DNA of 35,494 bases from Ilumatobacteraceae bacterium (GTDB lineage: Bacteria > Actinomycetota > Acidimicrobiia > Acidimicrobiales > Ilumatobacteraceae): contig JANMMQ010000056.1 of NCBI GenBank assembly GCA_031373465.1, positions 1 to 35,494 on the forward strand, written 5' to 3'. Position numbers and translations under genes: made by a program. Shown here in pieces: positions 1 through 17,782 of the stretch (position 1 is its first letter; every line of letters starts with the position of its first letter). The notes beneath the pieces were generated by a model that saw only the letters and a list, made by a program, of their open reading frames with translations, was not told the origin of the DNA and made no database searches.

Positions 1-1199
1 CCTTCCTGCGTCGGCCCCACTGGACCGGCTACGACCGTCGATAGCGGTGCAACGTACGGCCACACCTCGAAGAACACGAGGGCACCACCGAACCCGAAGT
101 TGTTGCCGTGATTCATCTGACGACCCTGATCCGTCAGGGAGTAGAACTGACCTTCCAGTGCGTCGGCAGGAATGGTCAGTTCGACGTCTGCTGTTTCACC
201 TGGTCCCACCAACGGCGCGATGAGGGTCTGGGGATCCGTGTAGAGCGAAGCGTTGCGGGCGAGCAGCGTCTGGCGAATCCCCAACATACCCATGGATTTG
301 TCGGTGACACCCGCGTTGACGTAGCGCAGCAACACCTTCTGCCCCGCCGGGACGTCGATGACCGCAGTGTCCGGGAACGACTTGCCGTTGACCAGGTGGT
401 ACACCTTGCGAGGAGTGCCATCGGGGTTCGGCGACTGGCCGAAGTAGCCCATGCCGAAGCTATGCCGCCCGGCCTGGAAGTCGGTTGCGAACTCGAGATC
501 GAGGTCGGTCGTCGCGACGATCGCCTCGTCCACGTATGGAGTTGCTCCGTAAGCACAGGCGTTACATCCAACAGGCGTCACGATCAGAACACCGACAAGG
601 CCCATCGCGATCTGCCGGGGCGCGTCCGCATTGGAGCCTGGCTGGAACACCGATGTGCCGATCATGTCGGCGGTCGTGGTAATGCTGTAGTCGGTGCCAC
701 TCCTGTGCACTGACCCCGCTGGAAGGCTCGGGAACGACAGCTCAGGCATGTCTGCCAGAGCCGGTGCCGAGAAGTGGATGATCAAGTCCGTGCCCGCTGG
801 CACCTTGATCGTCGACGTGTCGCCGCCCGCAAGCGTCACGTCAGACGTAGCGCCAATGTTGACGCCGAAGCCCAGGATCGCCACGTCCTGAGTGCCGAGG
901 GGGTTCGTCACGTCCTTGACCGTCACCGTGCTTGGCCCGGCATACAGGTTGATATCGCACGTCAGTGGTGTGGCGTCGGTCGCACACGTCGTCGCCGCGA
1001 TCGTCGCTGGCCACGTTGGGGCCACGGCCCCCGGCAACAGCCTGTCGCTGAACGTGTCGGCGTGAACTGCAATCGCCCCGCCAGTCAGGCCGGCGATCGC
1101 GATTGCGGCACCGGCCAGCCGCTTCGAGTTGCGCTTGATACCCATGGAAGTGCCTTCCCGCCGAGAGGCTGGTGTTTCTTGAATGGTGGTGTCGTTCAT
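1..1199 (-). CDS. Cupredoxin / multicopper-oxidase-like paralog with no recognisable copper ligands (N-terminal ~400 aa only; continues past the left edge)
   Basis: It is absent from the ORF track because no stop lies in the window. My manual minus-strand translation from ATG 1199 (alternative ATG 1145) stays open to nt 3. It reads MNDTTIQETPASRREGTSMGIKRNSKRLAGAAIAIAGLTGGAIAVHA (signal-like) ... RQIAMGLVGVLIVTP ... YHLVNGKSFPDTAV ... RQMNHGNNFGFGGALVFFEVW. This is collinear with the 1210..2802 product (QVQMGLFGALIIRP, YFMINGRSMPDTVA, NYGITFGGMLTLIKV). The gene starts 10 nt after the upstream stop. Confidence 0.7.
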   Translation of the reverse strand, partial: MNDTTIQETPASRREGTSMGIKRNSKRLAGAAIAIAGLTGGAIAVHADTFSDRLLPGAVAPTWPATIAATTCATDATPLTCDINLYAGPSTVTVKDVTNPLGTQDVAILGFGVNIGATSDVTLAGGDTSTIKVPAGTDLIIHFSAPALADMPELSFPSLPAGSVHRSGTDYSITTTADMIGTSVFQPGSNADAPRQIAMGLVGVLIVTPVGCNACAYGATPYVDEAIVATTDLDLEFATDFQAGRHSFGMGYFGQSPNPDGTPRKVYHLVNGKSFPDTAVIDVPAGQKVLLRYVNAGVTDKSMGMLGIRQTLLARNASLYTDPQTLIAPLVGPGETADVELTIPADALEGQFYSLTDQGRQMNHGNNFGFGGALVFFEVWPYVAPLSTVVAGPVGPTQE

Positions 1200-1209
1200 C
1201 GGTCGGCTC

Positions 1210-2802
1210 TCAATCACAGTTCGTGTTCATCTGGGCCTGGACCGATGCGGGTGGCTCGACCTTGATCAGGGTGAGCATTCCGCCGAACGTGATGCCGTAG
1301 TTGGTCACTTGTGTCAGGTCGTGATTGTGGGCGACGTGGTAATACTCGCCGCACTGCGTCTTGGTGAGGATCCCCGGGTTCAGGATTCCGCTCTCGCCGA
1401 GATAGGGCGAGCCACTCCAGAAGTCACCCTCTTGGAGGTTCAAGCCATTCGGCCATGCGACCGGGACCCGATTGCCGTCCGAGTCTTCGTACCCGACCTC
1501 GTTCGTCCATCGGAAAGTCGCATCCACGGTGGATCCAGGACCCACCATGATGTTGAACTTCTCCTCGGTGTTGTCGTTGCCCGTGCCAGCACCCTTCATC
1601 AGGGCACCGTCCTGCGCGATCACGTGCTCGTGGTTGGAGTGCGGGTGGAAGTCGTAGCCGGCGGTGCCGACAGCGACATAGCGCAACATCGAGTCGAGCG
1701 CGTTGGCGTTCAGTTCCCAGGGACTCACATGGGCCATGGCACCGTACGGCTGCGAAGGAAGCCACGGTGCGTAGTTCGGTGCGACGGTGTCAGGCATGGA
1801 GCGGCCGTTGATCATGAAGTAGTGCGCCTCATAGGCACGGGGGTACGAGTTCCAGTTGAGCAAGTCGACATTGGCCTTGTTCTGCTCCATGAAGGTGTGG
1901 ACGCCAGGATCCATCTCCGACAACATCAAGATGTTCTCGCTCTTCGAATCGCCGTCGTAGATCGCCAGGGGATCGCACCTCGTCGGGTCGTCGAGCCTTG
2001 CATAGGCGCACTTGGCCTTGGCGGCCGCCGCGCTCGCCGCAGCGGGGGTCATCCCGGCGCCACCATTCGTGGTGCCGCTGCCGTCCAGAGGAATCCCAAG
2101 AATGTCGATGTCCTCGATGGCTATCGGCGAACGGCTTCCGTCAGGCAGCTGAACTGAAGGTCGAATGATCAGTGCCCCGAACAAACCCATCTGCACCTGC
2201 AGCTGTGGATCGGAACCGCTCTGATACAGGTACGTGCCCGCGCTGCCTGCGACGAAGCTGTAGCTGATGCTTGCACCGGGGGCAGCCTGTGGCACTAGCG
2301 ACACCAGCTCGCCGGCTGACGCCACTGGACCGACAGGGCCGCTCGTGAAAGTGTCGTCGTACAGGACGCCTGTCTGGCCGGGGAACTGGATCGACGTCGC
2401 GACTGGAAGGAGATTGTGCAGGTTGACCTGGAGTGTGTCACCTTGGTCTGCGCACAGCACAGGCCCGGGCAGTTGGAATGCCCCGGAGGCGTTTCCATTT
2501 CCGTAGCCCCAGTCGTAGATGGCATTGCCGTCGGGCTCGCTGGTGTAGCCGTCGTCAGCGGTGAGGTCGAAGACCCGGTTGCCGGTGGCGTCGAAGCTGC
2601 CCTCGGTGCAAACCATTCCCTCACTCATCGGGCCGCTGGTTGCAGCTTGCGAATGGCCACCGAGCGGCGCGATCGAAGCGCCCGCGGCGCACAATCCTGC
2701 GACGCCGAGCCACACCGCCAACTTCGTCCTACGCCGCCGTGCGACCGTGGGTTCGTTCCCGCTCATCGCGTCCCCGTTCTGAATCATGTTGATGTTGTTC
2801 AT
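1210..2802 (-). CDS. Tat-exported two-cupredoxin multicopper-oxidase-like protein; His-x-His motifs only in the C-terminal domain and no type-1 Cys
   Basis: This is the 3' part of ORF 1210..3150. ATG 2802 gives MNNINMIQNGDAMSGNEPTVARRRRTKLAVWLGVAGLCAAGA (twin-arginine signal-like). The N-domain ligand positions are degenerate (SIQFPGQ; GTYLYQSGSDPQLQVQMGLFG). The C-domain has HPHSNHEH (1624..1647) and YYHVAHNHD...GGM (1321..1338) where HCH would be expected. A GAGG lies about 11 nt upstream of the ATG. Confidence 0.8.
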   Translation of the reverse strand: MNNINMIQNGDAMSGNEPTVARRRRTKLAVWLGVAGLCAAGASIAPLGGHSQAATSGPMSEGMVCTEGSFDATGNRVFDLTADDGYTSEPDGNAIYDWGYGNGNASGAFQLPGPVLCADQGDTLQVNLHNLLPVATSIQFPGQTGVLYDDTFTSGPVGPVASAGELVSLVPQAAPGASISYSFVAGSAGTYLYQSGSDPQLQVQMGLFGALIIRPSVQLPDGSRSPIAIEDIDILGIPLDGSGTTNGGAGMTPAAASAAAAKAKCAYARLDDPTRCDPLAIYDGDSKSENILMLSEMDPGVHTFMEQNKANVDLLNWNSYPRAYEAHYFMINGRSMPDTVAPNYAPWLPSQPYGAMAHVSPWELNANALDSMLRYVAVGTAGYDFHPHSNHEHVIAQDGALMKGAGTGNDNTEEKFNIMVGPGSTVDATFRWTNEVGYEDSDGNRVPVAWPNGLNLQEGDFWSGSPYLGESGILNPGILTKTQCGEYYHVAHNHDLTQVTNYGITFGGMLTLIKVEPPASVQAQMNTNCD

Positions 2803-2815
2803 GTGTCTGCCCGCC

Positions 2816-4372
2816 TCAGCCCGCAACCGGGAATTCGCCGACCCACTCGGGCTCGCCCGCCCAGCCGTTCGGCTTGAGCTGCGGAGCCAGATTCGGGAGA
2901 ACACGCACTTCGCTTCGCTGACCGCCGACCCATGCGTTGGTACCGTCCTCGCTGCCCGTGTAGTGGGACATGCCCCTGTCGTAGAAGGCGTAGGTCCCTT
3001 CCGCAGGAGCCGTGAAGAACACGTCGCGGCTCTCGCCTGGACCAATCTGAATGCTGTCCGTCGCCTTGCGCTGTGCACTCGGCGGTACGTACCGCGAATC
3101 ACGGCCGAGCACGTCGACCTCGAGACCGGGGAACACGATCGTGTGATCAAGGAATCCCAGGTTCGCGAAACGAATCAGGATCCTCTCCCCCGGCGACGCC
3201 TGTACCACCGAGCTCAGCGGGTTGCTGAACAACCGCGAGGCGTCGGTATCGGAGGCAGCCGTCAGGAGGTCTGACTTCATGCCTCCGTGGACCGTGTCTG
3301 CGACCAAACCGCCATCCGTCTGTGCAAAGAGCTGACCCGTGTCGTCGCGTACGCCATTGGGCTCGAGCGTGTCGGGGTACGCACGGCCATTCATCGTCCA
3401 CATGTCCGCGTGGAAGTCTGTCCAGTCCGTGGCTTGGATGTGAGCGTCGCCGAAGTGCGCCCTGGTGTCGATCTCGCTGAGCATGATTGCGTATTCGCGG
3501 TCGTACTTCGTCTCGCCCGTGAGGTCGCCGTCAGCTTGCCCGTATGCCTTGTGCTGTCCGGGCGCTAGCCCAACGGTGTCGGACGGAGACGGCTTGACGA
3601 AGACGATGCCGTGCATGCCCATCGTGACGTGCTCGACGTCTTCGAAGTGGCAGTGGTACATGTACGTGCCGGCGTCCTTCGGGCGGTACACGTAGGTGAA
3701 GTCGTGGCCGATGGCAACGGCGATCGAGCTCTCCGGCACGCCGTCGTAGAACGGGATGGCGTTGCGGAAGCCGTGCCAGTGGAGTGTGTGTCCGTCCACG
3801 AGGTCGGGTCGCAACTGGAGGCCGAGGTTGGTCAGCGTCACCCAGATCTCTTCGCCGACCGTGGAGTAGAAGATCGGAGCGCAGATCTGCGTGCGACCCT
3901 TCTGAGCAGCGACCTGGGACCGGTCGAGGCCCGTCACATTCCGGAAGCAGAAGGCGTAGGTCGTGGTGTTCGCCGGGTCAGCCAGCGGATCAGGGAAGTA
4001 CGGGTCGATGGACGCCGCACCCATGCCTGTTCCGAGAGCACCCGACCAGGGCATCGAGACCCAGCCGTCTGTGCCTGCGAGAGCAAAGTGTCTCACGCCC
4101 AGCGGCGGCGCGCCGACAGCATCGCCGGCTCGTCCGGACGCAGGATCGAGTCCGACCGGCGGCTGGCTGCGGGGTGAGGCCGCAGTGCCGCCCGCGGTGA
4201 TCAGCGCTTTGGCGGCACCCGCCGTGCCGGCCAGCACTGCTGCACCCGTTCCGCCGAGAATGAGGAACTTGCGACGACCAATCAGCCCGCCGACCCTTCC
4301 TTCCTCGTTGTCAGTTCCTGTAGTCACGTCTGTAGTTCCCTTCGTTCCGACCGGGTTGATCCGCCGACTCAT
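2816..4372 (-). CDS. Tat-exported multicopper oxidase family protein; type-1-like site plus four cluster His in the N-terminal cupredoxin domain
   Basis: This is the 3' part of ORF 2816..4600. ATG 4372 overlaps the stop of the giant gene (ATGA at 4369..4372). The N-terminus ...GLIGRRKFLILGGTGAAVLAGTAGAA is Tat-like. HTLHWHG lies at 3770..3790 and YHCHFEDVEHVTMGMHG at 3611..3655. The C-terminal domain (ERILIRFANLGFLDHTIVFPG ... GTYAFYDRGMSHYTG) has no HxH pair. Confidence 0.85.
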   Translation of the reverse strand: MSRRINPVGTKGTTDVTTGTDNEEGRVGGLIGRRKFLILGGTGAAVLAGTAGAAKALITAGGTAASPRSQPPVGLDPASGRAGDAVGAPPLGVRHFALAGTDGWVSMPWSGALGTGMGAASIDPYFPDPLADPANTTTYAFCFRNVTGLDRSQVAAQKGRTQICAPIFYSTVGEEIWVTLTNLGLQLRPDLVDGHTLHWHGFRNAIPFYDGVPESSIAVAIGHDFTYVYRPKDAGTYMYHCHFEDVEHVTMGMHGIVFVKPSPSDTVGLAPGQHKAYGQADGDLTGETKYDREYAIMLSEIDTRAHFGDAHIQATDWTDFHADMWTMNGRAYPDTLEPNGVRDDTGQLFAQTDGGLVADTVHGGMKSDLLTAASDTDASRLFSNPLSSVVQASPGERILIRFANLGFLDHTIVFPGLEVDVLGRDSRYVPPSAQRKATDSIQIGPGESRDVFFTAPAEGTYAFYDRGMSHYTGSEDGTNAWVGGQRSEVRVLPNLAPQLKPNGWAGEPEWVGEFPVAG

Positions 4373-7300
4373 GAGAACGTCACCGCCCTCGTCACCGTGA
4401 GCGTGCCGCTCTGTGTTGCGTTCGGCGGGATGACCGCCGTCGCTGTGCTGTTGACCACGCCGGATGTTCCGGCGGTTCGCTGCGCAGTGATCGTGAACGT
4501 GACGGTTCCGTTGGCAGCCACGTTGATCGTTCGGCTCAACGCCCCGGTCCCCGTCGCTGCTCCCCCGCAGCTGGAGTTCGCTCCGCCTGTGACGGCGCAC
4601 GACCAGCTGTTGAAGTTGACTCCCGGTGGGAGGGGGTTGCTGAGCACAATGCCCGCAATCTGGTCGAGGTTTGCACCGCTGTTGGCGACCCGCACCGCGT
4701 AGGTGTACGTGCCGTTGCCCTGTGGATTGGCCGCATTCGTGGTGTTGGTCAGAACCAGATTGGACCGGGCAACAACGGTGCTCGCCACCGAACTGGCGTT
4801 GTCCGTTGTGACTGTGTCGACGTAGTTCGCAACGGGTCCCAACGTGGCCGACTCGACGATGCTGGACCCGATGGCAGCGCCGTTGGCGACCGCGATCCCC
4901 AGCGGTAGGCCGAAGACAACCGCAGTCGAGTAGGTGAATGTCACCGTGCCGCCGCCGGCGACAGTCAGTGTTCGGTTGATGTTCCCCGCAGCGAGGCCCG
5001 GACCACCACAGTCGCTGCCTGCGCCGACCGCTGAGCAGCCGTACCCGATGAGACCGGTCGTCGCACCAGTGAGAGCGGTGGTCAGCTGGCCCTTCATCGT
5101 CGTCGTGCCGGTGTTGGACACCGTGATCACGTAGGGCAGCACCTGACCACGTGTGACCGACGGCAGTGCAGCGGGGGTGACGAGAACCTTGAGGTTTCCG
5201 CTGACCTGCACTGCAAACACCGCCGATGCCGAGTTGTTGCCGGTGAAGTTGTCAGTGATACCCGAAGTCGGGGCTGGCGCGACCGTGGCGATGTTCGTGA
5301 CCGAGCCGGCCGGGGCGTTGGCGGCCAACGTGCCGGTCAGGACGAAGGTCATGGTGGAACCTGTCGGCAGCAAGACATCCTGGATGAGGTTTCCGGCCGG
5401 GATGCTCGCGGGGCAGGTTGCGCTGCCGGTCGAGGTGCAGCTCCACGTACCGGTGACCGCCGCCGGGGCACCCGGCAGTGTGTCGGCCACCCGGGCAAGG
5501 CCGGCCGCAGGGCCGTAGTTGCTGACTGTGATCGTGTACGTGACCGCGCCGCCCGGGCTTACCGTTGCCGGCGACGCCGTTTTGCTGATGGCGAAGTCCG
5601 CATTGGTGCCCAGTTCGTCGGCGCCGCGGTCGACGTTGCCGATCGGACGATCGTCGGCGTCGATGTCGCGTGGTGGAGCGGTGGCTCCGTCACCGGCATT
5701 GAGTCCGGTGTTGAGAGTGCCATTGACGCCACCGGCGCTCGGCGACAAAAGGTGGTAGTCGGCCAGCAGGGTGATCGGAACCATCTGGGCAACGATCACC
5801 GGGAACGACACGTTGGTGTTGTTGCGCCACATCAAGCTGTCGACCACGAAGTCCTGCGGATGGGCGAAGCCCACACCACCGCCGCTGGCGGCAATCGTGC
5901 CGTCCAAAGTCGGGTTGATGTTGTCCGTCGTGCTCACGTAGCTGAGTGCGGCGCTTCCGGCATGCAACGGTGAACTTGTCGCGTTCGTCGTATTGCCTAT
6001 TCCCGTGAAGGCGAACGGTGCGGCCCCGCCGTTGTTGAGACCGGCCGTCGAGGCGACGCCGATGTCCCAACGCTGAATTTCAGCTCCATTGGTTGGGTCG
6101 CCGATCCCGTGGAGCGCGCTTCCGTTGGATGTCGCCGTCGGCAACTCGGCCCATCCGGCCCGGTTGTCGGCGAAGATGTTGTTCAACAACCTCGGCTTCG
6201 ACCAGTTCGGCGAGTTGGCGGGCATCGGTGGCTGCCCGTTGCAGGTGGCGGCGTTGACGCAGCCTTGCAACTGCACCGAGTTTCCACCTGTCGAGAGGCC
6301 TGCGGGGTTGGCCAGCCTGATGTTGCCGCTGGCAGAGTTGGTGGCCGCGGTCGCCGTGGTGATGTTCTTGACGATGGTGTTGTTCACGAGCGTCACGTTC
6401 GGGGCGTCATCGAGCGCCACACCGCCACCCTCGTGAGTGGACAGGTTGTTGGCGATGATGTTGTTGGACACCATCTCCGGGAAGTTGCCCGCCATCAGGA
6501 ACCTGATGCCACCACCGTCGTCGTTGGACTGGTTGGCAACCAACGTGTTGCTGTCGATGGTGACCGGGCCTGCGCCACGACTCAGTTGAGTGTTGTTGGC
6601 CGGCAGGGCGCCAGCGATCATGATGCCGCCGCCCTCGTCGTAACCCTGGTTGTAGTAGATGCGGTTCCTGGTGATGGCGCCACCGTTCGAGCGGCCGTAG
6701 TGCGAGATCGCCCCGCCGTACTCCGCCGAGAAGTTGCCGCAGAAGTCGTTTCCAGTAACCGTGTAGTTGTCGGCACCGGCAAAGATGCCGAGCGCGCCGG
6801 CCAGGTTCGTGCCGCCGTTGGCAACGATCCTGTTGTTGGCGACGTTGAGGCGTTCGTTGTGGTTGCTCGAGGCATTGGCGTCGCCAGGCAGGTCCGGCGT
6901 CCCGACACGGATCGTGCCGTAGGTGCCGCCGTTCGACTGGATCTGGTTGTTTGTGATCTGGAAGTCACGAACGTACTGATCGAGCATCACGGCGCCGCCC
7001 TGCGCGGGCCCCGGGTTGGTCGGAGCTGCAAGGCCATCGGGGATGCCGCCTGGCAAGGTGTTGATGTTGCCCGGGTTGCCCTGCTGGTCGCCGCCGGTCA
7101 GCAGCAGCCCGTCGAGACCTGCCCGGAAGTTGGTAGAGGGGCTCTGGTTCCCTGGCACGTACTGGTTCTGGGTCTCGGCGATGGCGAGCACGCCCTCACC
7201 CTCGGGAAGTTCGGTTGGGCCGGAACCCTGGCGGGTGAGCGCGGCGGCGAATGTTCGCCAGTCATCGGAGTAGCTGCCGTCCGATGTGTTTTGGTTGCCT

Positions 7301-10300
7301 CCTGACGGAACGACCTGAGTGGCCGACCAGTACTGCGATGCGTCGATGTTCGTGCCCGGAGCGACGTTCGTGGGAGTGATGGCCCCGCCGGGACCAACGC
7401 CTTGCAGCTTGATCTTGCTGTGCAGTACGACGTTCTCGAAGTACGCCGCCAACGGATTGTGTGCCGCGTAGTTCGGCGCCGTGTTCGGGTAGATCACGAT
7501 GAGCTGCGGCCGGGCGTTGCTCCTGTTGCCGGCGTCCTGGCGGGCACGCTCGATGGCCCGTTGGATCGCACGTCCACCGCTGACTGGTGTTCCGACCACT
7601 TCCGAGCCGATCGGCTTTGCGTTTCCGCTGAAACCAGCAGGAGTGTCCGTTGCGGTGTCCCAGGCGTCCATCTGCGGTGTGAAGACGCGGATGCCGACGC
7701 TGTTCGTGCCATCCGTCGTCGGCTCAGGACGAACCTCGTAGACATCACGGCGCTGGAGGTACGCCGAGCCGTTGGCCGACCCCGGCGACAGCACGTGGAA
7801 CGTGAGGCCATTGACGGTGTTGAGGCCATTAGCGTGGACGCTTAGCTGGTATGCACCGGGAGAATTCACCACCGATGCAGGTACGGTAAAAATGATCTCG
7901 TTCTCGGTCGAGGTTGTGGACACAGCTGTCGAGGTGTTACCGAGCGTCAACGTCGTCGTGGCCGAGGCACCGAACCCGCTTCCCCGAATTCTGTAGGTAT
8001 GGCCACTGTCGCCACCGGAGTTCGGGTCGTAATAGGGCTTGTCGATCGAGAAGAGCACAGCGTTCTTCACGTCGAGCTTGCACAGGCTCAGCGCACCGAA
8101 CTGCGCCGCCGGACCCTCGATCGTGATCCCGTTGTGTGTCGGAGCCTGGTCAACGGGATGCACTACACCCGGCCATGCCTGGAACTCAGTCGCAATGGTT
8201 CGGAACTGCGGGTTGTAGTCGAGGTTGCGGTGCGCCGAAGTGCCGGGGTCGTTCCCGACGAGGCGGTACACGTTTGGACAAGGACCGGCCGGCAGCGGGC
8301 AGTTGTATGTCCCCGTCGATGGCAGCAGGATCTCGTAGAAACCGTTGACGTCGCTGTGCGCTGTCAACTTCCAGTTGCCATTCTCGTCGTAGACGCCGAC
8401 AGGAACATTGGAGGCCGGGGCCACCTCACCGAACATGGTGCTGCGACGGTCGGTCTGCACGTTGAGGTCGTCGTTGACCAATCCGTAAAACTTCGATGGC
8501 AGCGGCACCTCGGTGTACATGAAGAAGCCGGCCGGCATCGAGCGGCCACCGGCGACTGTCACGACCTTGGCATCGCAGACCGGAACGGTGCGTCCGGCGT
8601 ACGGGTTGCCGCCGGCATCATTGAGGTCTGGGTTGATGGCACCTTGGCCGGTTCCCGAGCCCACGGGGCCGATGGGTGGCACCGTGAAGGTCGAGCCAGC
8701 GCACAGCGCTACGGTTCCTGCGCCCAGCGAGTTGCGATCATAGCGGATCGGCGCGCTCGGTGTGACCTGCAGGCCGTAGCCACCTGCGGCTCCCGCCGCA
8801 GGGCCGGAGAAACCCTGTTGCGGAACGTAGCTGTCGCCGCTCATCACGTTGATGGCCGTCTCGTCCGTGAACCGGAACAGCCGGTTCGGGTTACTGCCGT
8901 CGATGTAGCCGCCGACGTTCGTGTCGGGAACGCTCTTCACGTTGATCGTGTCAACCGGGTTGACGGCCTCCACGACGTAGTCTCCCGATGTCAGGGCAGT
9001 CGACTGGGTCGGGTTGTTCTGGGCGTCGGCGTAGACCGACTCGAGATCGGTGCCGGCAGGAACCTGCAGCGTCGTCGGATCGATCAGGCTCGTCAGCGCG
9101 TAGTTGCCGTCGACCGTGCCCTCGCCGCCGATCTGCACACCACTCATCGGGGCTTCGATGCACTCGGGGTTGTTGGTATCGGTGTGCGAGGGATCCGCTG
9201 TGACCGGCGAGTCCGGCAGAGCAAGCTCGCCGGCGAGCGGATTACCGTTGACATCTAGCGCGGTGCAGCCAGTGGGTCGAGTCCAGCTCTCCGTGACGTA
9301 GTAGTCGTAGGGCAGACACGGCTGGCTCTCGGTCACGGCGTTGGTGCCGCGCGACATGTCAGGACGCAGGCACTCGTTGCCATTCGGTTGGATGCCCCAC
9401 TGTTGGACGGCGCCGCTGTTCCCGGCAGCGCCGTTGTAGGTGTCGACGTGGACGCCGTCGGACTTGTGGGTCTTCCACAGCTGCATCGAGATGCCCGGGA
9501 CGCCCGGCTGGTAGTCCTCTTGCGCCGAGAAAGCTGGATCGAACTCGTTGCGTGTGACGTCGTACGTGACGGTTCCGACGATTCCGCCGTTCTCGTCCCT
9601 CGGCGCAGTGCCAAGAGCCCCGCCGGACCAGTAGTCGTCGCCCGTGCCGTACGCCTGGACGCCCCAGTCCAAGTGCGCCGACAGACCAATGACGGGGAGG
9701 AAGTCGACGTCTACCTGTGCCGACAACACGGTCTTGGGTGTCAGGTCGTTGTCGGTGTAATAGGTGAAGCCGGTGTTCTTGTAGCGAGGGTTGTAGGCCT
9801 CGGCGATGAGGAACTGGCCCAAGGGATAACCCTGACTGAGGTCGTACTCGCCCTCGTCGTTCGTGACGGCGACATTGGCGCCCTGGTCTTGGACCGAGTT
9901 GCCGCGGGTGCGCTCGGACAACCCGAAATCAGGGATGCCGGGCTCGAGTTGGCCGTTGGGACCAAGGTCGCGCTTACCGTTGCCGTTGAGGTCGTTGAAG
10001 ACGACGCCACGGAGATCGGTGAACCAACCCGGCAGCAGAATGTCTCCGGCGTCGTTGGTGTTGTCGACCTGCGGCGTTGGGGTCGAATCGGCAGTCGTCG
10101 GTGCTGCGTCTTGCCTGCGGACCCGGACGGTCAATCCGTTGCTGCTGACGTTGGTCACCACGAACATGCCGTTCCAGGTTGGGTTGCCTGCGCCGACCAG
10201 AGGGATGGTCGCACCGACAGCGAGACCGGAGGCAACGGCAAAGTTCAGGGTCAGCTGACCGGCGTTGGCACCAGTGCCAATTCGGGTCGCACTCGTGATC

Positions 10301-11979: not shown

Positions 11980-12230
11980 CCATCCCCGCTCTCGTCGTGC
12001 CTGGTGAGATCCAAGGCGCCGGCGCCGATCAATCGACCGACTAGTGGTCGGTTCGGGGCATGACAAAGATGTGCCGCGATTGCAATTGTCCCTCACGCCC
12101 GTCCCTTTCCGTCCAAATGCTCTCGGAGCCGTCCGCTACCGAGAGTGAGCCGGGACTATACCTAGGGCTTAGTACCTTAGCAAGAGAAAACTTCGCCGAA
12201 GCCTTACCATCGTCGCTCCGCTATCGCACT

Positions 12231-15496: not shown

Positions 15497-17782
15497 ATGA
15501 CGCCAGTAGCCAAGCGACGGTTCGTCCGCGCCGACGGACCAGACAAGGTGACCGGTAGCGGGCGGTACACCGCTGACCTCACCCTCACGGGCATGCTCGC
15601 GGCGAAGTTCCGGTACGCCGGGATCGCGCACGCCCGCATCACCAGGATCGATGTGAGCGCGGCACGGGCCATTCCCGGTGTGATGGCCGTGTTGACCAAC
15701 GACGATGTACCGGACGTGCGATTCGGGCCGTTCGTACAGGACCGCACCCTCTTCGCCCGCGACGTCGTTCGATTCGAGGGAGAGGTCGTTGCAGCCGTCG
15801 CCGCGACAACCGCTGCCATCGCTCAGAGAGCAGTCGACGCGATCGTCGTCGAGTTCGAACCTCTTCCTGTCATCACCGACCTCGAGGCGGCACTCGCACA
15901 GGACGCGCCGCTGGTACACACCGGTTGGGCCGACTACGGCGCCGCGGGTGAGCTGGTGCGAAATGGCAACGACGCATCGTTCTCGTCGATCGAAAAGGGC
16001 GATGTCGATGCCGGCCTGGCCGCAGCGGACCACGTGGTCACCAGTCGCTATGTCGCCGACGGCAGTCACGCCGTGCCGATCGAGCCGCGTGCGGTCGTCG
16101 CCCAATGGGAGGGCAACAAGGTCACCATCTGGTCGTCCACGCAGGTGCCTTTCGATGCCCGGGGTGGCGTCTGCGAGACGTTGGAGCTTCCGGCCAACCG
16201 GGTTCGCATCGTCGTCCCCCATCTCGGCGGAGGCTTCGGCGGCAAGTGTGGTTTCCATTACGAAGCGCATGTCGCCGCGCTCGCCCGAGCTTCGAAGCGA
16301 CCGGTGCGATTGGTGTTCTCGCGGCGCGAGGAGTTCGTCGCTCCCGACCGTCGTCGCGAAGGGATGGTCATCGACATCACCACCGGGGTCCGCAACGACG
16401 GAACGATCACGGCCCGTCAGGCGTGGATCGCGATCGACAACGGTGCCTACACGGCTGACAGCGGTTTCTTCCCGCAACTGGCGGCGATGCACGTGTCCGG
16501 GCCTTATCGAATCCCCAACCTGCACGTTGCCGCCCATCTCGTGTACACCAACCACCAACCGTCGGGGTCGGTTCGGGCGCCCACGGCGCCGCAGGCATGT
16601 TGGGCCGTCGAGTCGCACACCGACGAGGTCGCTGCCGCAGTGGGCATGGACCCGGTCGAGTTTCGCAGGCTCAATGCGGTCGACACGGGTGTCGAAGGGC
16701 CCAGTGGACAGACCTACGGCGAGATCGGTGTGCAGCAGTGCATCGAAGAGGCCACCAAGTTGGTCGGGTACGGGCGATCCTTGCCCGATGACGAGGCGAT
16801 CGGCGTCGCGATCGGCTGGTGGCCGAGCTTCGCGGTGCCGTCGGGTGCCTACATCAAGATCGACGGTGACGGTTCCGGCCAGATCATCACGGGTGCGCAA
16901 GAGTGCGGCACCGGTTCAGTGATGACGCTCCGCCAGCTCGCCGCGGAGGAGCTCGGCATGGAGCCGGAGGACTTCCAGCTGATCTATCAAGACACCTCCG
17001 TCGCTCCGTACGACATGGGTGCCACAGGCTCACAGACTCTCTTCAACAACGGCCGGGCCGTCGTTGCCGCTGCGGGTCAAATCGCAGAGCAGCTCAAGGC
17101 CCTGGCGGCAGAACACCTCGAAGCGTCCGCCGCCGACATCGTCCTGGCCGACGGTCACGCGCACGTCGCGGGTACCCCGAGCTCGACGGTGTCGATCACC
17201 GAGCTGGCGGCGATCGCTGGCGGCGGTGAGCTGTTGATCGGACACGGGTCGGGTACACCGCCATCAGCGCCACCATTGGCGGGCTCCACGTGTGTCGGCG
17301 ATGTCGGCATGGCGTCGTTCGTCGCCCCGCAGTTCTCGTGTCATGCCGTGCGCATCCGGCTCGATCGCGACACGGGGGTGGTGCGGGTGCTCGAGGTTGG
17401 TGCCGCACACGACTCGGGAACGATCATCAACGAGACCGGTGCGCTCGGTCAGATCCAAGGTGGCGTGATGATGGGGATCGGTCAGGCGTTGACCGAGGGA
17501 ACGCTGTATGACGACGATTCTCGGCAGCGCAATGCCGCGCTGCTTGAGTACAAGTTGCAGACGTCCGCCGATGCGCCGGTGATCAACACGCACTTCGTGC
17601 AGATCGCCACACCGGACGCAGGACCACGCGGCGCCAAGGGGCTGGCCGAAGCACCCAACGTTGCAACTGCTGCCGCAATCTCCAACGCCCTCGCCAAGTT
17701 GCTCGGGGGCCCGGTTCGCCGACTGCCGATGACGGCTGAACGAGTCTGGGAGACGGGCACACAATCAGGGGTCCGTTCATGA
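15497..17782 (+). CDS. Xanthine dehydrogenase / aldehyde oxidase family molybdopterin-binding large subunit
   Basis: This is the 3' part of ORF 15146..17782. The start is ATG 15497 (MTPVAKRRFVRADGPDKVTGSGRYTADL...) or in-frame ATG 15458. The product is ~761 aa with the typical family N-terminus and length. The upstream part of the track ORF overlaps the protease gene. Confidence 0.85.
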   Translation: MTPVAKRRFVRADGPDKVTGSGRYTADLTLTGMLAAKFRYAGIAHARITRIDVSAARAIPGVMAVLTNDDVPDVRFGPFVQDRTLFARDVVRFEGEVVAAVAATTAAIAQRAVDAIVVEFEPLPVITDLEAALAQDAPLVHTGWADYGAAGELVRNGNDASFSSIEKGDVDAGLAAADHVVTSRYVADGSHAVPIEPRAVVAQWEGNKVTIWSSTQVPFDARGGVCETLELPANRVRIVVPHLGGGFGGKCGFHYEAHVAALARASKRPVRLVFSRREEFVAPDRRREGMVIDITTGVRNDGTITARQAWIAIDNGAYTADSGFFPQLAAMHVSGPYRIPNLHVAAHLVYTNHQPSGSVRAPTAPQACWAVESHTDEVAAAVGMDPVEFRRLNAVDTGVEGPSGQTYGEIGVQQCIEEATKLVGYGRSLPDDEAIGVAIGWWPSFAVPSGAYIKIDGDGSGQIITGAQECGTGSVMTLRQLAAEELGMEPEDFQLIYQDTSVAPYDMGATGSQTLFNNGRAVVAAAGQIAEQLKALAAEHLEASAADIVLADGHAHVAGTPSSTVSITELAAIAGGGELLIGHGSGTPPSAPPLAGSTCVGDVGMASFVAPQFSCHAVRIRLDRDTGVVRVLEVGAAHDSGTIINETGALGQIQGGVMMGIGQALTEGTLYDDDSRQRNAALLEYKLQTSADAPVINTHFVQIATPDAGPRGAKGLAEAPNVATAAAISNALAKLLGGPVRRLPMTAERVWETGTQSGVRS

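What the first reader, a model, noticed from the sequence alone, without database searches (positions are those of the whole stretch)
1..12096. Giant secreted beta-helix/Ig-repeat protein translationally coupled to three tandem cupredoxin (multicopper-oxidase-like) genes
Seen in the sequence:
- Four co-directional minus-strand genes have almost no spacing. The giant-gene stop and next-gene start overlap as ATGA at 4369..4372. The next gap is 13 nt (2803..2815) and the last is 10 nt (1200..1209).
- They follow a ~465-bp, lower-GC leader and divergent region.
- The giant protein has a Sec-type signal. The first two oxidase-like proteins have twin-arginine N-termini (GRRKFLILGG; ARRRRTKLAV).
- The operon continues past the left edge.

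Established knowledge: MCOs are usually single-gene enzymes, and the Bacillus Mnx Mn(II) oxidase is a rare multi-subunit exception.

Inference: this may be an extracellular oxidase assembly. Tat-exported copper subunits could dock on, or act on, a giant beta-helix/adhesin-like scaffold. Candidate functions are Mn(II)/Fe(II) oxidation, oxidation of phenolic or humic polymers, or oxidative cross-linking of the scaffold itself. I do not recognise this gene architecture as a described system.
Basis: partly seen in the sequence, partly recalled or inferred. Interest (0 to 1): 0.8.

Follow-up and report, generated by a model that had tools for sequence, protein, structure and literature searches.

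The report
Split three-subunit copper oxidase operon
This operon encodes a giant secreted surface protein followed by three related copper-oxidase-like proteins that appear to be complementary pieces of one enzyme, in a gene cluster conserved across many soil and water bacteria and apparently never described.

Summary
Four tightly packed minus-strand genes encode a 2536-aa secreted protein of Ig-like domains plus a beta-helix, then three paralogous two-cupredoxin-domain proteins (MCO1, MCO2, MCO3).

The order giant-MCO1-MCO2-MCO3-small membrane protein-CopC/CopD recurs in about 80 genomes of Actinomycetota, Chloroflexota and Dormibacterota. A two-component system lies nearby in every locus examined for one.

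The three "oxidases" are not three enzymes:
- MCO1 domain 1 carries an invariant blue-copper site plus four trinuclear-cluster histidines. Its domain 2 has lost its four.
- MCO2 domain 1 has no ligands. Its domain 2 keeps two invariant HxH pairs.
- MCO3 has no invariant ligand set.

Their closest solved relatives are obligate homotrimers that build the trinuclear cluster between domain 1 of one chain and domain 2 of the next. I therefore infer a heterotrimeric, pseudo-six-domain oxidase with one catalytic centre at the MCO1/MCO2 interface. In effect it is an unfused ceruloplasmin-type ring. It is probably tethered at the cell surface by the giant protein and supplied with copper by CopCD.

The substrate is unknown; a metal ion such as Cu(I) is my leading guess. 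No literature on such a system was found.

The parts
11980..12444 (-). 465-bp lower-GC intergenic/leader region between the giant gene and a divergent F420-dependent LLM oxidoreductase gene. It holds a sigma-70-like hit (12183..12155) and a perfect 10-nt inverted repeat (12231-12258).
4369..11979 (-). Giant secreted protein, 2536 aa. It has an N-terminal Sec-type signal (residues 1-34, window 11878-11979), Ig-like/beta-sandwich domains (SdrD_B, CarboxypepD_reg-like, TIG), a right-handed beta-helix, and a DUF11 repeat tail.
5611..11817 (-). Conserved core of the giant protein (residues 55-2123). It aligns at 26-42% identity (mostly 35-38%) to the cluster-linked protein in eleven distant loci, including Chloroflexota and Dormibacterota. 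It is not His/Met-rich and has no CxxCH motif.
8080..8529 (-). Most conserved stretch of the giant protein (residues 1151-1300). The majority residue averages 67-80% frequency per column, there are no gaps, and C1227/C1234 are conserved.
6400..6747 (-). Beta-helix turns carrying a repeated acidic-GGG motif (AEYGGAI, DEGGGIM, DDGGGIR, HEGGGVA) with invariant N/D/E/G residues.
4372..5604 (-). C-terminal DUF11 (TIGR01451) repeat tail (residues 2125-2536). About 75-87% of aligned homologues have gaps here. Among the loci checked, only Acidimicrobiia-type ones (L001, L016) align into the tail.
2816..4372 (-). MCO1, a two-cupredoxin-domain protein of 518 aa. It is the only subunit with a type-1 copper site and a canonical Tat signal (RRKFL, within window 4238-4285).
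3770..3790 (-). MCO1 domain 1 motif H195-T-L-H198-W-H200-G (HxxHxH). It supplies one T1 ligand and two trinuclear-cluster ligands, and is present in 68 of 69 aligned sequences (the other has a gap).
3614..3655 (-). MCO1 domain 1 motif H240-C241-H242-FEDVE-H248-VTMG-M253. It holds the T1 Cys/His/Met and two trinuclear-cluster His, with the same HCH-x5-H spacing as the type-C two-domain oxidase 3g5w. It carries an acidic E244/D245/E247 loop, invariant across the 50 sequences of alignment A4.
3122..3151 (-). MCO1 domain 2 relic (LDHTIVFPGL). V413 and P415 replace the two His of the 3g5w/2zwn domain-2 HxH. No homologue has His at these positions.
1210..2802 (-). MCO2, a two-cupredoxin-domain paralogue of 530 aa (or 518 aa from M13). 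Domain 1 is copper-less. Domain 2 carries the complementary half of the trinuclear-cluster ligands.
2176..2232 (-). MCO2 domain 1 degenerate site YLYQSGSDPQLQVQMGLFG. QSG replaces HCH and Q replaces the T1 His. No Cys/His ligand occurs here in any of 72 sequences.
1627..1656 (-). MCO2 domain 2 motif F-H386-P-H388 (72/72 sequences). It aligns with the domain-2 HxH of 3g5w/2zwn by way of MCO1.
1315..1353 (-). MCO2 domain 2 motif C484-GEYY-H489-VA-H492-N-H494. H492 and H494 are 72/72 and H489 is 85%. C484 and C529 are invariant and may form a disulfide.
1357..1473 (-). MCO2 residues 444-482. The segment is highly conserved (WSGSPYLG...LNPG) but has low confidence in the monomer AF2 model, making it a candidate partner-dependent interface segment.
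1..1199 (-). MCO3, cut by the window edge (399 of about 460 aa). It is a two-cupredoxin-domain paralogue with no invariant copper ligand set and a Sec-like signal. In most Actinomycetes it carries a further C-terminal Ig-like extension of about 600 aa.

Best explanation
The region is the 5' two-thirds of a conserved module: giant surface protein, MCO1, MCO2, MCO3, a small membrane-anchored protein (s1) and a CopC-CopD fusion, with a two-component system nearby in every locus examined for one.

Proposed architecture:
- MCO1, MCO2 and MCO3 are diverged paralogues of a type-C two-domain multicopper oxidase. They no longer work as homotrimers. They assemble 1:1:1 into a six-cupredoxin-domain ring.
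- The ring has one type-1 copper, in MCO1 domain 1.
- It has one trinuclear O2-reducing cluster, built from four His of MCO1 domain 1 (H198, H200, H240, H242) and four His of MCO2 domain 2 (H386, H388, H492, H494).
- MCO3 is a copper-free subunit that closes the ring and, in most lineages, carries a long Ig-like arm.
- In function this is an unfused analogue of six-domain oxidases such as ceruloplasmin, which have a single trinuclear cluster between their first and last domains.

Proposed assembly and placement:
- MCO1 is exported folded through Tat. MCO2, MCO3 and the giant protein probably go through Sec.
- The interface cluster is therefore probably metallated outside the membrane. The CopC domain/CopD and s1 would handle the copper.
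- The giant Ig-like/beta-helix protein is a co-evolving cell-surface partner that retains or positions the oxidase on a cell without an outer membrane.

Substrate: electrons from a substrate bound near the MCO1 T1 site reduce O2 to water. My leading guess is a metal cation, Cu(I) first and Fe(II)/Mn(II) second. This rests on the invariant acidic loop next to the T1 ligands and on the cop-like gene company.

Shown versus inferred:
- Shown: gene order and its conservation, paralogy, ligand distribution, fold class, export-signal types.
- Inferred: heterotrimer formation, ring order, copper loading route, tethering by the giant protein, substrate.
For: 1. Synteny. Relative to MCO2, wherever the contig has room: MCO1 in at least 68/73 loci, giant 65/66, MCO3 71/71, s1 62/63, CopCD 49/53. 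The same cluster is recovered from MCO1 seeds and from giant seeds, including the complete genome of Nakamurella panacisegetis and a Caldilineaceae MAG.

2. Paralogy over both domains: MCO1 vs MCO2 hhalign probability 99.8%, E 1.9e-27; MCO3 vs MCO1 E 2e-28; MCO3 vs MCO2 E 1e-45.

3. Complementary ligands:
- H195/H198/H200, H240-C241-H242, H248 and M253 of MCO1 are present in 68/69 or 67/69 aligned sequences.
- None of 69 MCO1 sequences has His at the domain-2 positions equivalent to the trinuclear-cluster ligands.
- None of 72 MCO2 sequences has the domain-1 ligands.
- H386, H388, H492 and H494 of MCO2 are 72/72.
- MCO3 has no invariant His/Cys set.
- So no single chain, and no homotrimer, can make an 8-His trinuclear cluster. 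MCO1 plus MCO2 can.

4. Positional equivalence. MCO1 V413/P415 align with the domain-2 H-x-H of 3g5w and 2zwn and with MCO2 H386/H388.

5. Closest structures are obligate trimers with inter-subunit clusters.
- MCO1 domain 1 is most similar to the type-C two-domain oxidases 3g5w and 2zwn.
- The MCO2 AF2 model matches 7rab, 3gdc, 9cck, 4kns, 3g5w and 2zwn, with target TM-scores of 0.59-0.70.
- Two-domain MCOs are described as a trimeric class (PMC13151041, abstract).

6. Rosetta-stone fusions. P0371 (884 aa) and P0373 (1156 aa) are natural MCO2-MCO3 fusions.

7. Tight coupling: an ATGA or 1-nt overlap between giant and MCO1 in several Acidimicrobiia.

8. Copper context.
- A CopC-CopD fusion is present. 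CopC/CopD homologues are regarded as periplasmic copper binder and putative importer (PMC8689200, abstract).
- s1 has a conserved Met/His pair in an extracytoplasmic domain.
- An OmpR-type response regulator and a histidine kinase are adjacent. The regulator's best NCBIfam match is the heavy-metal CopR/SilR class, below cutoff.

9. The giant protein resembles surface-structure proteins only: S-layer SlaB, pilins, CnaB, adhesins. Yet its roughly 2000-aa core is conserved across phyla. That fits a dedicated partner rather than a free-evolving adhesin.
Against: - There is no direct evidence of complex formation. A multimer structure prediction could not be run.
- The C-terminal part of MCO2 that carries H489/H492/H494 is poorly predicted (pLDDT below 50), so its position at an interface is not shown.
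- The MCO2 domain 2 profile finds no solved structure by sequence.
- The MCO1 domain 2 to 3g5w/2zwn alignment that anchors the positional equivalence is weak on its own (8-15 bits).
- Different export routes (Tat for MCO1, Sec-like for MCO2 and MCO3) mean the shared cluster must be assembled after export. That is unusual for multicopper oxidases.
- Extra invariant His (MCO1 H306, H311, H410; MCO2 H302) are unexplained by the model.
- Nothing links the giant protein physically to the oxidase except conserved adjacency.
- The substrate is a guess. CopCD may simply supply copper to the enzyme rather than indicate copper detoxification.
- The regulator's match to copper-type regulators is below the family cutoff.
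Confidence: 0.6

Rival explanations
1. A cop/pco-type copper-resistance or copper-homeostasis operon in Gram-positive dress. The oxidase, whatever its quaternary structure, is a cuprous oxidase like CopA/PcoA/CueO. CopC-CopD and s1 shuttle copper, the two-component system senses copper, and the giant protein stands in for CopB/PcoB as an envelope component. This is a function-level reading and is compatible with the heteromer model.
For: - An MCO plus CopC plus CopD plus an adjacent OmpR-type two-component system reproduces the gene company of copABCD-copRS (the operon paradigm is from my own knowledge).
- The best NCBIfam hit of MCO1, MCO2 and L001 MCO3 is the copper-resistance CopA family TIGR01480.
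- The best hit of the response regulator is the heavy-metal CopR/SilR class.
- An invariant acidic loop sits next to the T1 site.
Against: - TIGR01480 scores are 23-55 bits against a cutoff of 479, so these are not CopA orthologues.
- There is no Met-rich Cu(I)-binding segment in MCO1.
- The giant protein is not His/Met-rich (1.3% His, 1.1% Met), so it is not a copper sponge.
- A conserved 1800-2500-aa partner is not part of any known cop system.
- CopCD genes also accompany cuproenzymes simply as copper suppliers.
Confidence: 0.35
2. One reading: an extracellular Mn(II)/Fe(II)-oxidising or phenol/humic-oxidising assembly. The giant beta-helix/Ig protein would be the platform on which mineral or polymer is deposited, or would itself be oxidatively cross-linked into a surface matrix.
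For: - Giant and oxidase genes are strictly co-inherited and translationally coupled.
- The giant protein resembles S-layer, adhesin and pilin building blocks.
- Acidic residues flank the T1 site, as in metallo-oxidases.
- Hosts are soil and freshwater Actinomycetota and Chloroflexota.
Against: - No homology was found to Mnx, Mof or Mop components.
- No literature ties these genera's Mn oxidation to this cluster.
- The giant protein's sequence is highly constrained (invariant residues throughout), which is unlike a sacrificial cross-linking substrate.
- Tyr content is unremarkable (3.0%).
- Nothing in the data discriminates between substrates.
Confidence: 0.2
3. The three cupredoxin proteins act separately. 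MCO1 would be a blue-copper electron carrier or NirK-like enzyme. MCO2 would be a histidine-rich copper-binding or chaperone protein. MCO3 would be a copper-free structural protein like FtsP/SufI. Their adjacency would reflect tandem duplication and shared regulation only.
For: - Copper-less proteins with the MCO fold exist (FtsP/SufI, my own knowledge).
- The three proteins carry different export signals.
- MCO2's C-terminal motif region is not confidently folded.
Against: - MCO1 keeps HxxHxH and HCH, the oxidase pattern, rather than the NirK pattern. Four of those His have no role without partner ligands.
- Exactly four complementary His are invariant in MCO2, at the domain-2 positions expected from two-domain oxidases.
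- All three genes co-occur in fixed order in about 70 loci across three phyla.
- MCO2-MCO3 fusions exist.
Confidence: 0.12

Closest known systems
Type-C two-domain multicopper oxidases (Nitrosomonas europaea blue copper oxidase, PDB 3g5w; metagenomic mgLAC, PDB 2zwn)
   Same: - Two cupredoxin domains per chain.
- The T1 site is in domain 1, with identical HxxHxH and HCH-x5-H-x4-M spacing.
- They are the best sequence hits of MCO1 (E 2.5e-14 and 2.1e-12).
- They are among the top structural matches of MCO2.
- The trinuclear cluster is built between domain 1 and domain 2 of neighbouring chains.
   Different: - Known members are homotrimers in which every chain has all 12 ligands, giving three T1 sites and three trinuclear clusters.
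- Here the ligands are split over two different chains and a third chain has none. At most one T1 and one trinuclear cluster per three chains is possible.
- The chains are 100-200 aa longer and carry large insertions.
- The genes are embedded in a cluster with a giant partner.
Six-domain multicopper oxidases (ceruloplasmin, hephaestin; bacterial MnxG-type)
   Same: - Works alike: a pseudo-threefold ring of six cupredoxin domains with a single trinuclear cluster at one interface and degenerate sites elsewhere.
- The evolutionary scheme in PMC3600357 derives six-domain proteins from the triplication of a two-domain protein.
   Different: - Those are single polypeptides. Here the ring would be three separate gene products.
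- Ceruloplasmin keeps T1 sites in domains 2, 4 and 6. Here there is only one T1.
- No sequence-level orthology was seen.
Bacillus Mnx Mn(II) oxidase complex (MnxE, MnxF, MnxG)
   Same: It is a multi-subunit, exported multicopper oxidase encoded by adjacent genes.
   Different: - MnxG alone is a complete six-domain oxidase.
- MnxE and MnxF are small non-cupredoxin accessory subunits (my own knowledge).
- In the present system catalysis itself appears to need two different cupredoxin subunits.
copABCD-copRS / pcoABCD-pcoRS copper-resistance operons
   Same: The gene company matches: an exported Tat-dependent multicopper oxidase, CopC and CopD functions, and an adjacent OmpR-type two-component system.
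   Different: - CopA/PcoA is a single three-domain oxidase with Met-rich inserts.
- CopB/PcoB is an outer-membrane protein.
- Those operons have no giant Ig/beta-helix protein, no paralogous copper-less subunits and no s1.
- The TIGR01480 score is far below cutoff.
Copper-containing nitrite reductase NirK and the Nitrosopumilus two-domain MCO (PDB 9cck)
   Same: They share the trimeric two-cupredoxin-domain fold class. They are among the sequence hits of MCO1 and MCO2 and among the top structural matches of the MCO2 model.
   Different: - NirK has a 3-His type-2 site, not HxxHxH/HCH plus two further HxH pairs.
- Those enzymes are built from identical chains.

Membership tests
Multicopper oxidase superfamily (cupredoxin-domain oxidases) | Cupredoxin domains recognisable by sequence or fold | tested here: met
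   - Pfam Cu-oxidase_3, Cu-oxidase_2 and Cu-oxidase in MCO1; Cu-oxidase_3 in MCO2; Cu-oxidase_3 in the MCO3 orthologue of L001.
- MCO3 is paralogous to MCO1 and MCO2 by hhalign.
- Foldseek matches the MCO2 model to two-domain MCOs and NirK.
Multicopper oxidase superfamily (cupredoxin-domain oxidases) | Four copper-binding motifs in one polypeptide: HxH, HxH, HxxHxH and HCHx(n)Hx4M, giving 1 Cys and 10 His plus an axial ligand | tested here: not met
   - MCO1 has only HxxHxH and HCHx5Hx4M.
- MCO2 has only two HxH pairs.
- MCO3 has none.
- The full set exists only in MCO1 plus MCO2 together.
Two-domain MCO, type C | Two cupredoxin domains with the T1 copper in domain 1 | tested here: met
   MCO1 aligns over 162-262 to 3g5w 30-126 with the T1 and trinuclear-cluster motifs in register. 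A second domain at 388-472 hits Pfam Cu-oxidase.
Two-domain MCO, type C | Domain 2 of the same chain supplies the other four trinuclear-cluster His, so a homotrimer is active | tested here: not met
   MCO1 positions 413/415 and 464/466 are T/V/S, D/P, Y and R. None of 69 sequences has His there.
Two-domain MCO, type C | Homotrimeric quaternary structure | not testable with these tools
   No multimer prediction or biochemistry was available. The ligand distribution argues against a functional homotrimer.
Six-domain MCO (ceruloplasmin/MnxG type) | Six cupredoxin domains in one polypeptide | tested here: not met
   There are three separate ORFs with stop codons and their own signal peptides. Only MCO2-MCO3 fusions are seen, and only in a few relatives.
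Six-domain MCO (ceruloplasmin/MnxG type) | A single trinuclear cluster at one domain interface of a pseudo-trimeric ring | tested here: inconclusive
   The ligand census allows exactly one such cluster per MCO1+MCO2+MCO3. The ring itself is inferred.
CopA/PcoA copper-resistance oxidase (TIGR01480) | Score above the curated family cutoff of 478.95 bits | tested here: not met
   MCO1 scores 55.4 bits, MCO2 34.5 bits, and MCO3 23.5 bits (L001) or 42.4 bits (L083).
cop/pco-type operon | MCO with CopC and CopD functions and a linked two-component regulator | tested here: met
   - CopC and CopD Pfam/NCBIfam hits in the cluster's last gene.
- Response regulator and histidine kinase adjacent in L001, L002, L023, L041, L049, L067, L083 and L085.
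- The window itself ends before these genes.
Copper nitrite reductase NirK (TIGR02376) | Score above cutoff (296 bits) and a 3-His type-2 site instead of a trinuclear cluster | tested here: not met
   Scores are 26 and 24.8 bits. MCO1 has the oxidase-type HxxHxH and HCH motifs.
Mnx Mn(II) oxidase complex | A complete MnxG-type oxidase plus MnxE/MnxF small subunits | tested here: not met
   No complete oxidase chain is present. Homology of s1 or s2 to MnxE/F was not tested directly, because neither has a Pfam or NCBIfam model hit.

The most novel reading that the evidence does not exclude
A natural 'unfused ceruloplasmin'. This would be the first heterotrimeric multicopper oxidase, with catalysis requiring two different two-domain subunits and a third, copper-free paralogue closing the ring. 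It would be a living example of the intermediate postulated between homotrimeric two-domain oxidases and six-domain oxidases. It would also be an integral part of a previously unrecognised cell-surface machine built around a conserved ~2000-aa protein core, with its own copper-delivery genes. The machine is widespread in Actinomycetota, Chloroflexota and Dormibacterota.
Probability: 0.5. Interest if true: 0.85.

Novelty: new variant of a known kind. Interest (0 to 1): 0.72.

Why it matters
Enzyme architecture and evolution:
- Multicopper oxidases are textbook enzymes whose evolution from two-domain trimers to three- and six-domain chains has been argued from hypothetical intermediates (PMC3600357).
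- A heterotrimer whose single O2-reducing cluster is shared between two different gene products would be a new quaternary solution.
- It would make that evolutionary step directly testable.
- It would show how paralogue specialisation can strip two of three active sites from a symmetric enzyme.

Annotation:
- Hundreds of proteins now labelled "multicopper oxidase domain-containing protein" or "IPT/TIG domain-containing protein" would gain a context. The MCO2 family alone has 331 clusters at 50% identity with E no greater than 1e-30.
- MCO2- and MCO3-type proteins should not be expected to be active alone, for example when mining genomes for laccases.

Biology:
- The strict pairing with a conserved ~2000-aa surface-protein core and with CopCD points to an unstudied copper-dependent process at the envelope of common soil and freshwater bacteria.
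- Some hosts are cultured (Nakamurella, Terrabacter, Kribbella, Nocardioides, Micromonospora), so experiments are feasible.

Tried and rejected
- A profile of MCO2 domain 2 against all PDB sequences gave no meaningful hit. The ligand equivalence had to be established transitively through MCO1.
- The full giant protein against PDB sequences gave nothing.
- AF2 of giant residues 1100-2125 followed by Foldseek gave only generic Ig-like, S-layer, pilin and adhesin matches at low TM-scores. No enzyme fold appeared. I therefore dropped the idea that the beta-helix is a recognisable lyase or NosD-like module.
- AF2 of MCO2 gave a confident domain 1. The C-terminal motif region was not confident, so it could not be used to place H492/H494.
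- The giant protein as a copper sponge was rejected on composition. A cytochrome-like conduit was rejected because there is no CxxCH motif.
- NCBIfam and Pfam gave no specific family for s1, s2 or MCO3.
- An Rfam scan of the leader found nothing credible.
- The perfect inverted repeat in the leader is not conserved in related loci, so I make no operator claim.
- Five literature searches for heteromeric or split two-domain oxidases, for the gene cluster, and for a Mn-oxidation link in the host genera returned nothing relevant. The library lacks most subscription journals, so absence is not proof.
- Two long 'fusion' proteins (P0387, P0395) were rejected as frameshift read-throughs, because they contain low-complexity Arg/Pro/His junk between the halves.
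- The minus-strand ORF 12400..13284 was rejected as a gene on GC3 (0.63 against 0.78 for the plus-strand LLM gene).


Full report
**1. What is in the window**

The left third of the window carries four co-directional minus-strand genes with coding-type GC3 of 0.77-0.80.
- The giant gene is 4369..11979, 2536 aa counted from MMLRNW.
- MCO1 is 2816..4372 (518 aa).
- MCO2 is 1210..2802 (530 aa).
- MCO3 is 1..1199, cut by the window edge.

- ATGA overlap at 4369-4372.
- 13-nt gap at 2803-2815.
- 10-nt gap at 1200-1209.
- No terminator-like site lies at any junction.

Two start codons are uncertain.
- 89% of MCO2 homologues align their first Met with M13.
- MCO1 has a long pre-Tat N-region.
- Either way the genes remain tightly packed.

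Upstream lies a 465-bp region (11980-12444). GC over 12001-13000 is 0.589 against about 0.64 elsewhere. Beyond it is a divergent F420-dependent LLM oxidoreductase gene that scores above its NCBIfam cutoff. The rest of the window is ordinary chromosome: a Mo-hydroxylase, GH36, Ku and LigD. The best protein matches place the organism in the Ilumatobacteraceae, class Acidimicrobiia.

**2. The cluster is conserved and larger than the window shows**

One scan of species-representative genomes, seeded with MCO2, found 159 genomes and returned 80 loci.
- They cover Acidimicrobiia and many Actinomycetes: Terrabacter, Kribbella, Nocardioides, Micromonospora, Amycolatopsis, Planosporangium, Phycicoccus and Pengzhenrongella.
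- They also cover Chloroflexota and Dormibacterota.

Mapping ORFs against the window's proteins gave one gene order throughout:
- giant protein, about 1700-2700 aa
- MCO1, about 430 aa
- MCO2, about 435 aa
- MCO3, about 460 aa in the window's lineage and about 1040 aa in most Actinomycetes
- s1, a membrane-anchored protein of about 160 aa
- a CopC-CopD fusion

Where the contig leaves room, the neighbours of MCO2 are present as follows:

| Neighbour | Loci with it / loci with room |
|---|---|
| MCO1 | at least 68/73 |
| giant | 65/66 |
| MCO3 | 71/71 |
| s1 | 62/63 |
| CopCD | 49/53 |

Independent seeds give the same picture.
- MCO1 homologues at 46-70% identity recover the cluster.
- Giant homologues recover it in the complete genome of Nakamurella panacisegetis and in a Caldilineaceae MAG.

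An OmpR-type response regulator and a histidine kinase sit next to the cluster in every locus I examined for them.

**3. The three cupredoxin proteins are complementary**

All three are paralogues aligned across both cupredoxin domains.
- MCO1 vs MCO2: probability 99.8%, E 1.9e-27.
- MCO3 vs MCO1: E 2e-28. MCO3 vs MCO2: E 1e-45.

A ligand census over 63-72 orthologues gave the following.

MCO1:
- Domain 1 has H195-x-x-H198-x-H200 and H240-C241-H242-x5-H248-x4-M253 in 67-68 of 69 aligned sequences.
- That is a complete type-1 site plus four trinuclear-cluster histidines.
- The motif spacing is the same as in the type-C two-domain oxidase of Nitrosomonas europaea (3g5w), its best PDB hit.
- In domain 2, the positions that align with the two HxH pairs of 3g5w and 2zwn are T/V/S-x-D/P and Y-x-R. 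None of 69 sequences has His there.

MCO2 is the mirror image:
- Domain 1 reads QSG where MCO1 has HCH.
- Domain 2 has H386-P-H388 and H492-x-H494 in 72/72 sequences.
- H386/H388 fall exactly on the columns of the 3g5w/2zwn domain-2 HxH, by way of MCO1.

MCO3 has no invariant His/Cys ligand set.

No single chain, and therefore no homotrimer, can build the eight-histidine trinuclear cluster that defines a multicopper oxidase. MCO1 and MCO2 together have exactly the right set.

**4. Why a heterotrimeric ring**

- The nearest solved relatives by sequence and by fold are two-domain oxidases and NirK-type enzymes.
- The fold matches are 7rab, 3gdc, 9cck, 4kns, 3g5w and 2zwn, with target TM-scores of 0.59-0.70.
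- These enzymes are trimeric (PMC13151041, abstract). From my own knowledge of the family, they place the inter-domain copper site between domain 1 of one chain and domain 2 of the next.
- Three paralogues in fixed order, one complementary pair of half-sites, and a third ligand-free chain are most simply explained by a 1:1:1 ring of six cupredoxin domains with one T1 and one trinuclear cluster.
- That is the logic of six-domain oxidases such as ceruloplasmin, but unfused.
- Published evolutionary schemes derive six-domain proteins from the triplication of a two-domain ancestor (PMC3600357).
- Two representative proteins (P0371, P0373) are natural MCO2-MCO3 fusions, a Rosetta-stone hint that these chains associate.
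- A conserved 39-residue MCO2 segment (444-482) is not confidently folded in the monomer model. That is compatible with a partner-dependent interface.

All of this is inference. I could not run a multimer prediction, and the region carrying H492/H494 is poorly modelled.

**5. Export and copper supply**

- MCO1 has a canonical twin-arginine motif, S/T-R-R-x-F-L, in 66/69 homologues.
- MCO2 and MCO3 have basic or Sec-like signals.
- If MCO1 leaves folded via Tat and the others via Sec, the interface cluster must be metallated outside the membrane.
- That gives a rationale for the conserved CopC-CopD gene and for s1. The extracytoplasmic domain of s1 has a conserved Met/His pair.
- CopC/CopD homologues are regarded as a copper binder and a putative importer (PMC8689200, abstract).

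**6. The giant protein**

- Its core, residues 55-2123, aligns at 26-42% identity (mostly 35-38%) with the cluster-linked protein in eleven distant loci, including Chloroflexota and Dormibacterota. Many Gly, Asp, Asn and Cys residues are invariant.
- The DUF11 tail is gapped in about 75-87% of aligned homologues. Among the loci checked, only Acidimicrobiia-type ones align into it.
- It is not His/Met-rich and has no heme motif.
- It has no PDB sequence relative.
- Public annotations call it only 'IPT/TIG domain-containing', 'large repetitive' or 'pectin lyase-like'.
- An AF2 model of residues 1100-2125 (pTM 0.82) shows beta-sandwich domains followed by a beta-helix.
- Foldseek returns S-layer SlaB, pilins, CnaB and adhesins at low TM-scores, and no enzyme.
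- I read it as a dedicated surface partner or tether of the oxidase. Nothing tests that beyond co-inheritance and, in Acidimicrobiia, translational coupling.

**7. Function**

The gene company parallels cop/pco operons: an exported oxidase, CopC, CopD and a two-component system.
- The best NCBIfam match of the Nakamurella response regulator is the CopR/SilR class, though below cutoff.
- An acidic loop (E244, D245, E247), invariant in the 50-sequence alignment A4, adjoins the T1 ligands.

I therefore rank a metal-cation substrate first, with Cu(I) ahead of Fe(II)/Mn(II). The evidence is weak.
- CopA-family scores are far below cutoff.
- CopCD could merely feed the enzyme.

**8. Novelty and verdict**

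- Five full-text searches found no heteromeric or split two-domain oxidase and no description of this cluster. The library is incomplete, so this is not proof of novelty.
- The family is sizeable: 331 clusters at 50% identity with E no greater than 1e-30 for MCO2 alone.
- I class it as a new variant of a known kind of enzyme, set in an undescribed conserved module.
The assembly and synteny ideas hold. 'Three oxidases' should be replaced by 'one split oxidase'.
- The substrate and the role of the giant protein remain to be shown.

Noticed in passing
window 12231-12258 and 12234-12290: A perfect 10-nt inverted repeat, GAGAGATGTC-N8-GACATCTCTC, lies in the 465-bp leader. A 12-nt direct repeat (AGATGTCGATGC / AGGTGTCGATGC, 45 nt apart) overlaps it. 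It could be an operator, but the exact palindrome is absent from the 82 related loci held at the time.
   Followed up: partly
window 12445-13290 (+): The divergent neighbour is a TIGR03560-family F420-dependent LLM-class oxidoreductase (251.9 bits, cutoff 231.4). The overlapping minus-strand ORF 12400..13284 is not a gene (GC3 0.63).
   Followed up: yes
proteins P0371 and P0373 (representative library): These are natural fusions of an MCO2-like N-terminal half (FHPHGNH, YPWHSH motifs) with an MCO3-like C-terminal half, joined by an Ig-like linker. P0387 and P0395 look like frameshift read-throughs instead.
   Followed up: partly
proteins P0378, P0385, P0386, P0390, P0394: This is a subfamily of MCO2-like proteins with an unrelated C-terminal extension of about 250-400 aa ending ...NFMK(L/I/V)VYDAP (one ends NLMKVVHG). 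Their genomic context was not examined.
   Followed up: no
window 3437-3475 (MCO1 H306, H311) and MCO2 H302: Extra invariant histidines sit in the inter-domain linker motif SE(I/V)D..H of MCO1 and MCO2 but not MCO3. The trinuclear-cluster model does not explain them. They may mark an additional metal or substrate site.
   Followed up: no
MCO3 orthologues in L021-L082 (positions 156, 196, 311, 471 of the L002 MCO3): Most Actinomycete MCO3 proteins carry His at four positions (65-79% of sequences) that the window's lineage lacks. This hints at a second metal site at another ring interface in those lineages.
   Followed up: no
L002 16095-16565; L003 13539-14063 and relatives: An extra small Cys-rich, lipoprotein-like gene ('s2') lies between s1 and CopCD. 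It was detected only in the window's closest Acidimicrobiia-type relatives (blast matches in about a dozen loci, L002-L020 and L077).
   Followed up: no
L029 16971-19536 (Pengzhenrongella phosphoraccumulans): A second set of a CopC-like gene, a CopD-like gene and a YcnI-like protein (mature N-terminus AHVRV...) directly follows the cluster's own CopCD gene.
   Followed up: no
window 13337-15819 (-): The long ORFs listed here overlap. Pfam places a Rieske domain at the 3' end of one frame and a fatty-acid desaturase domain in another. The real genes are shorter than the mechanical ORFs, as is typical of high-GC DNA.
   Followed up: partly
window 27010-29529 (+): A Ku protein and a LigD (phosphoesterase plus primase-polymerase domains) are adjacent. 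This is a bacterial NHEJ pair in which LigD shows no ligase-domain hit in Pfam.
   Followed up: no
L083 5797-7908 (Nakamurella panacisegetis): A pyridine-nucleotide disulfide oxidoreductase, a DsrC-like gene and a DsrE-like gene lie just beyond the two-component system upstream of the cluster. This was seen in one genome only.
   Followed up: no
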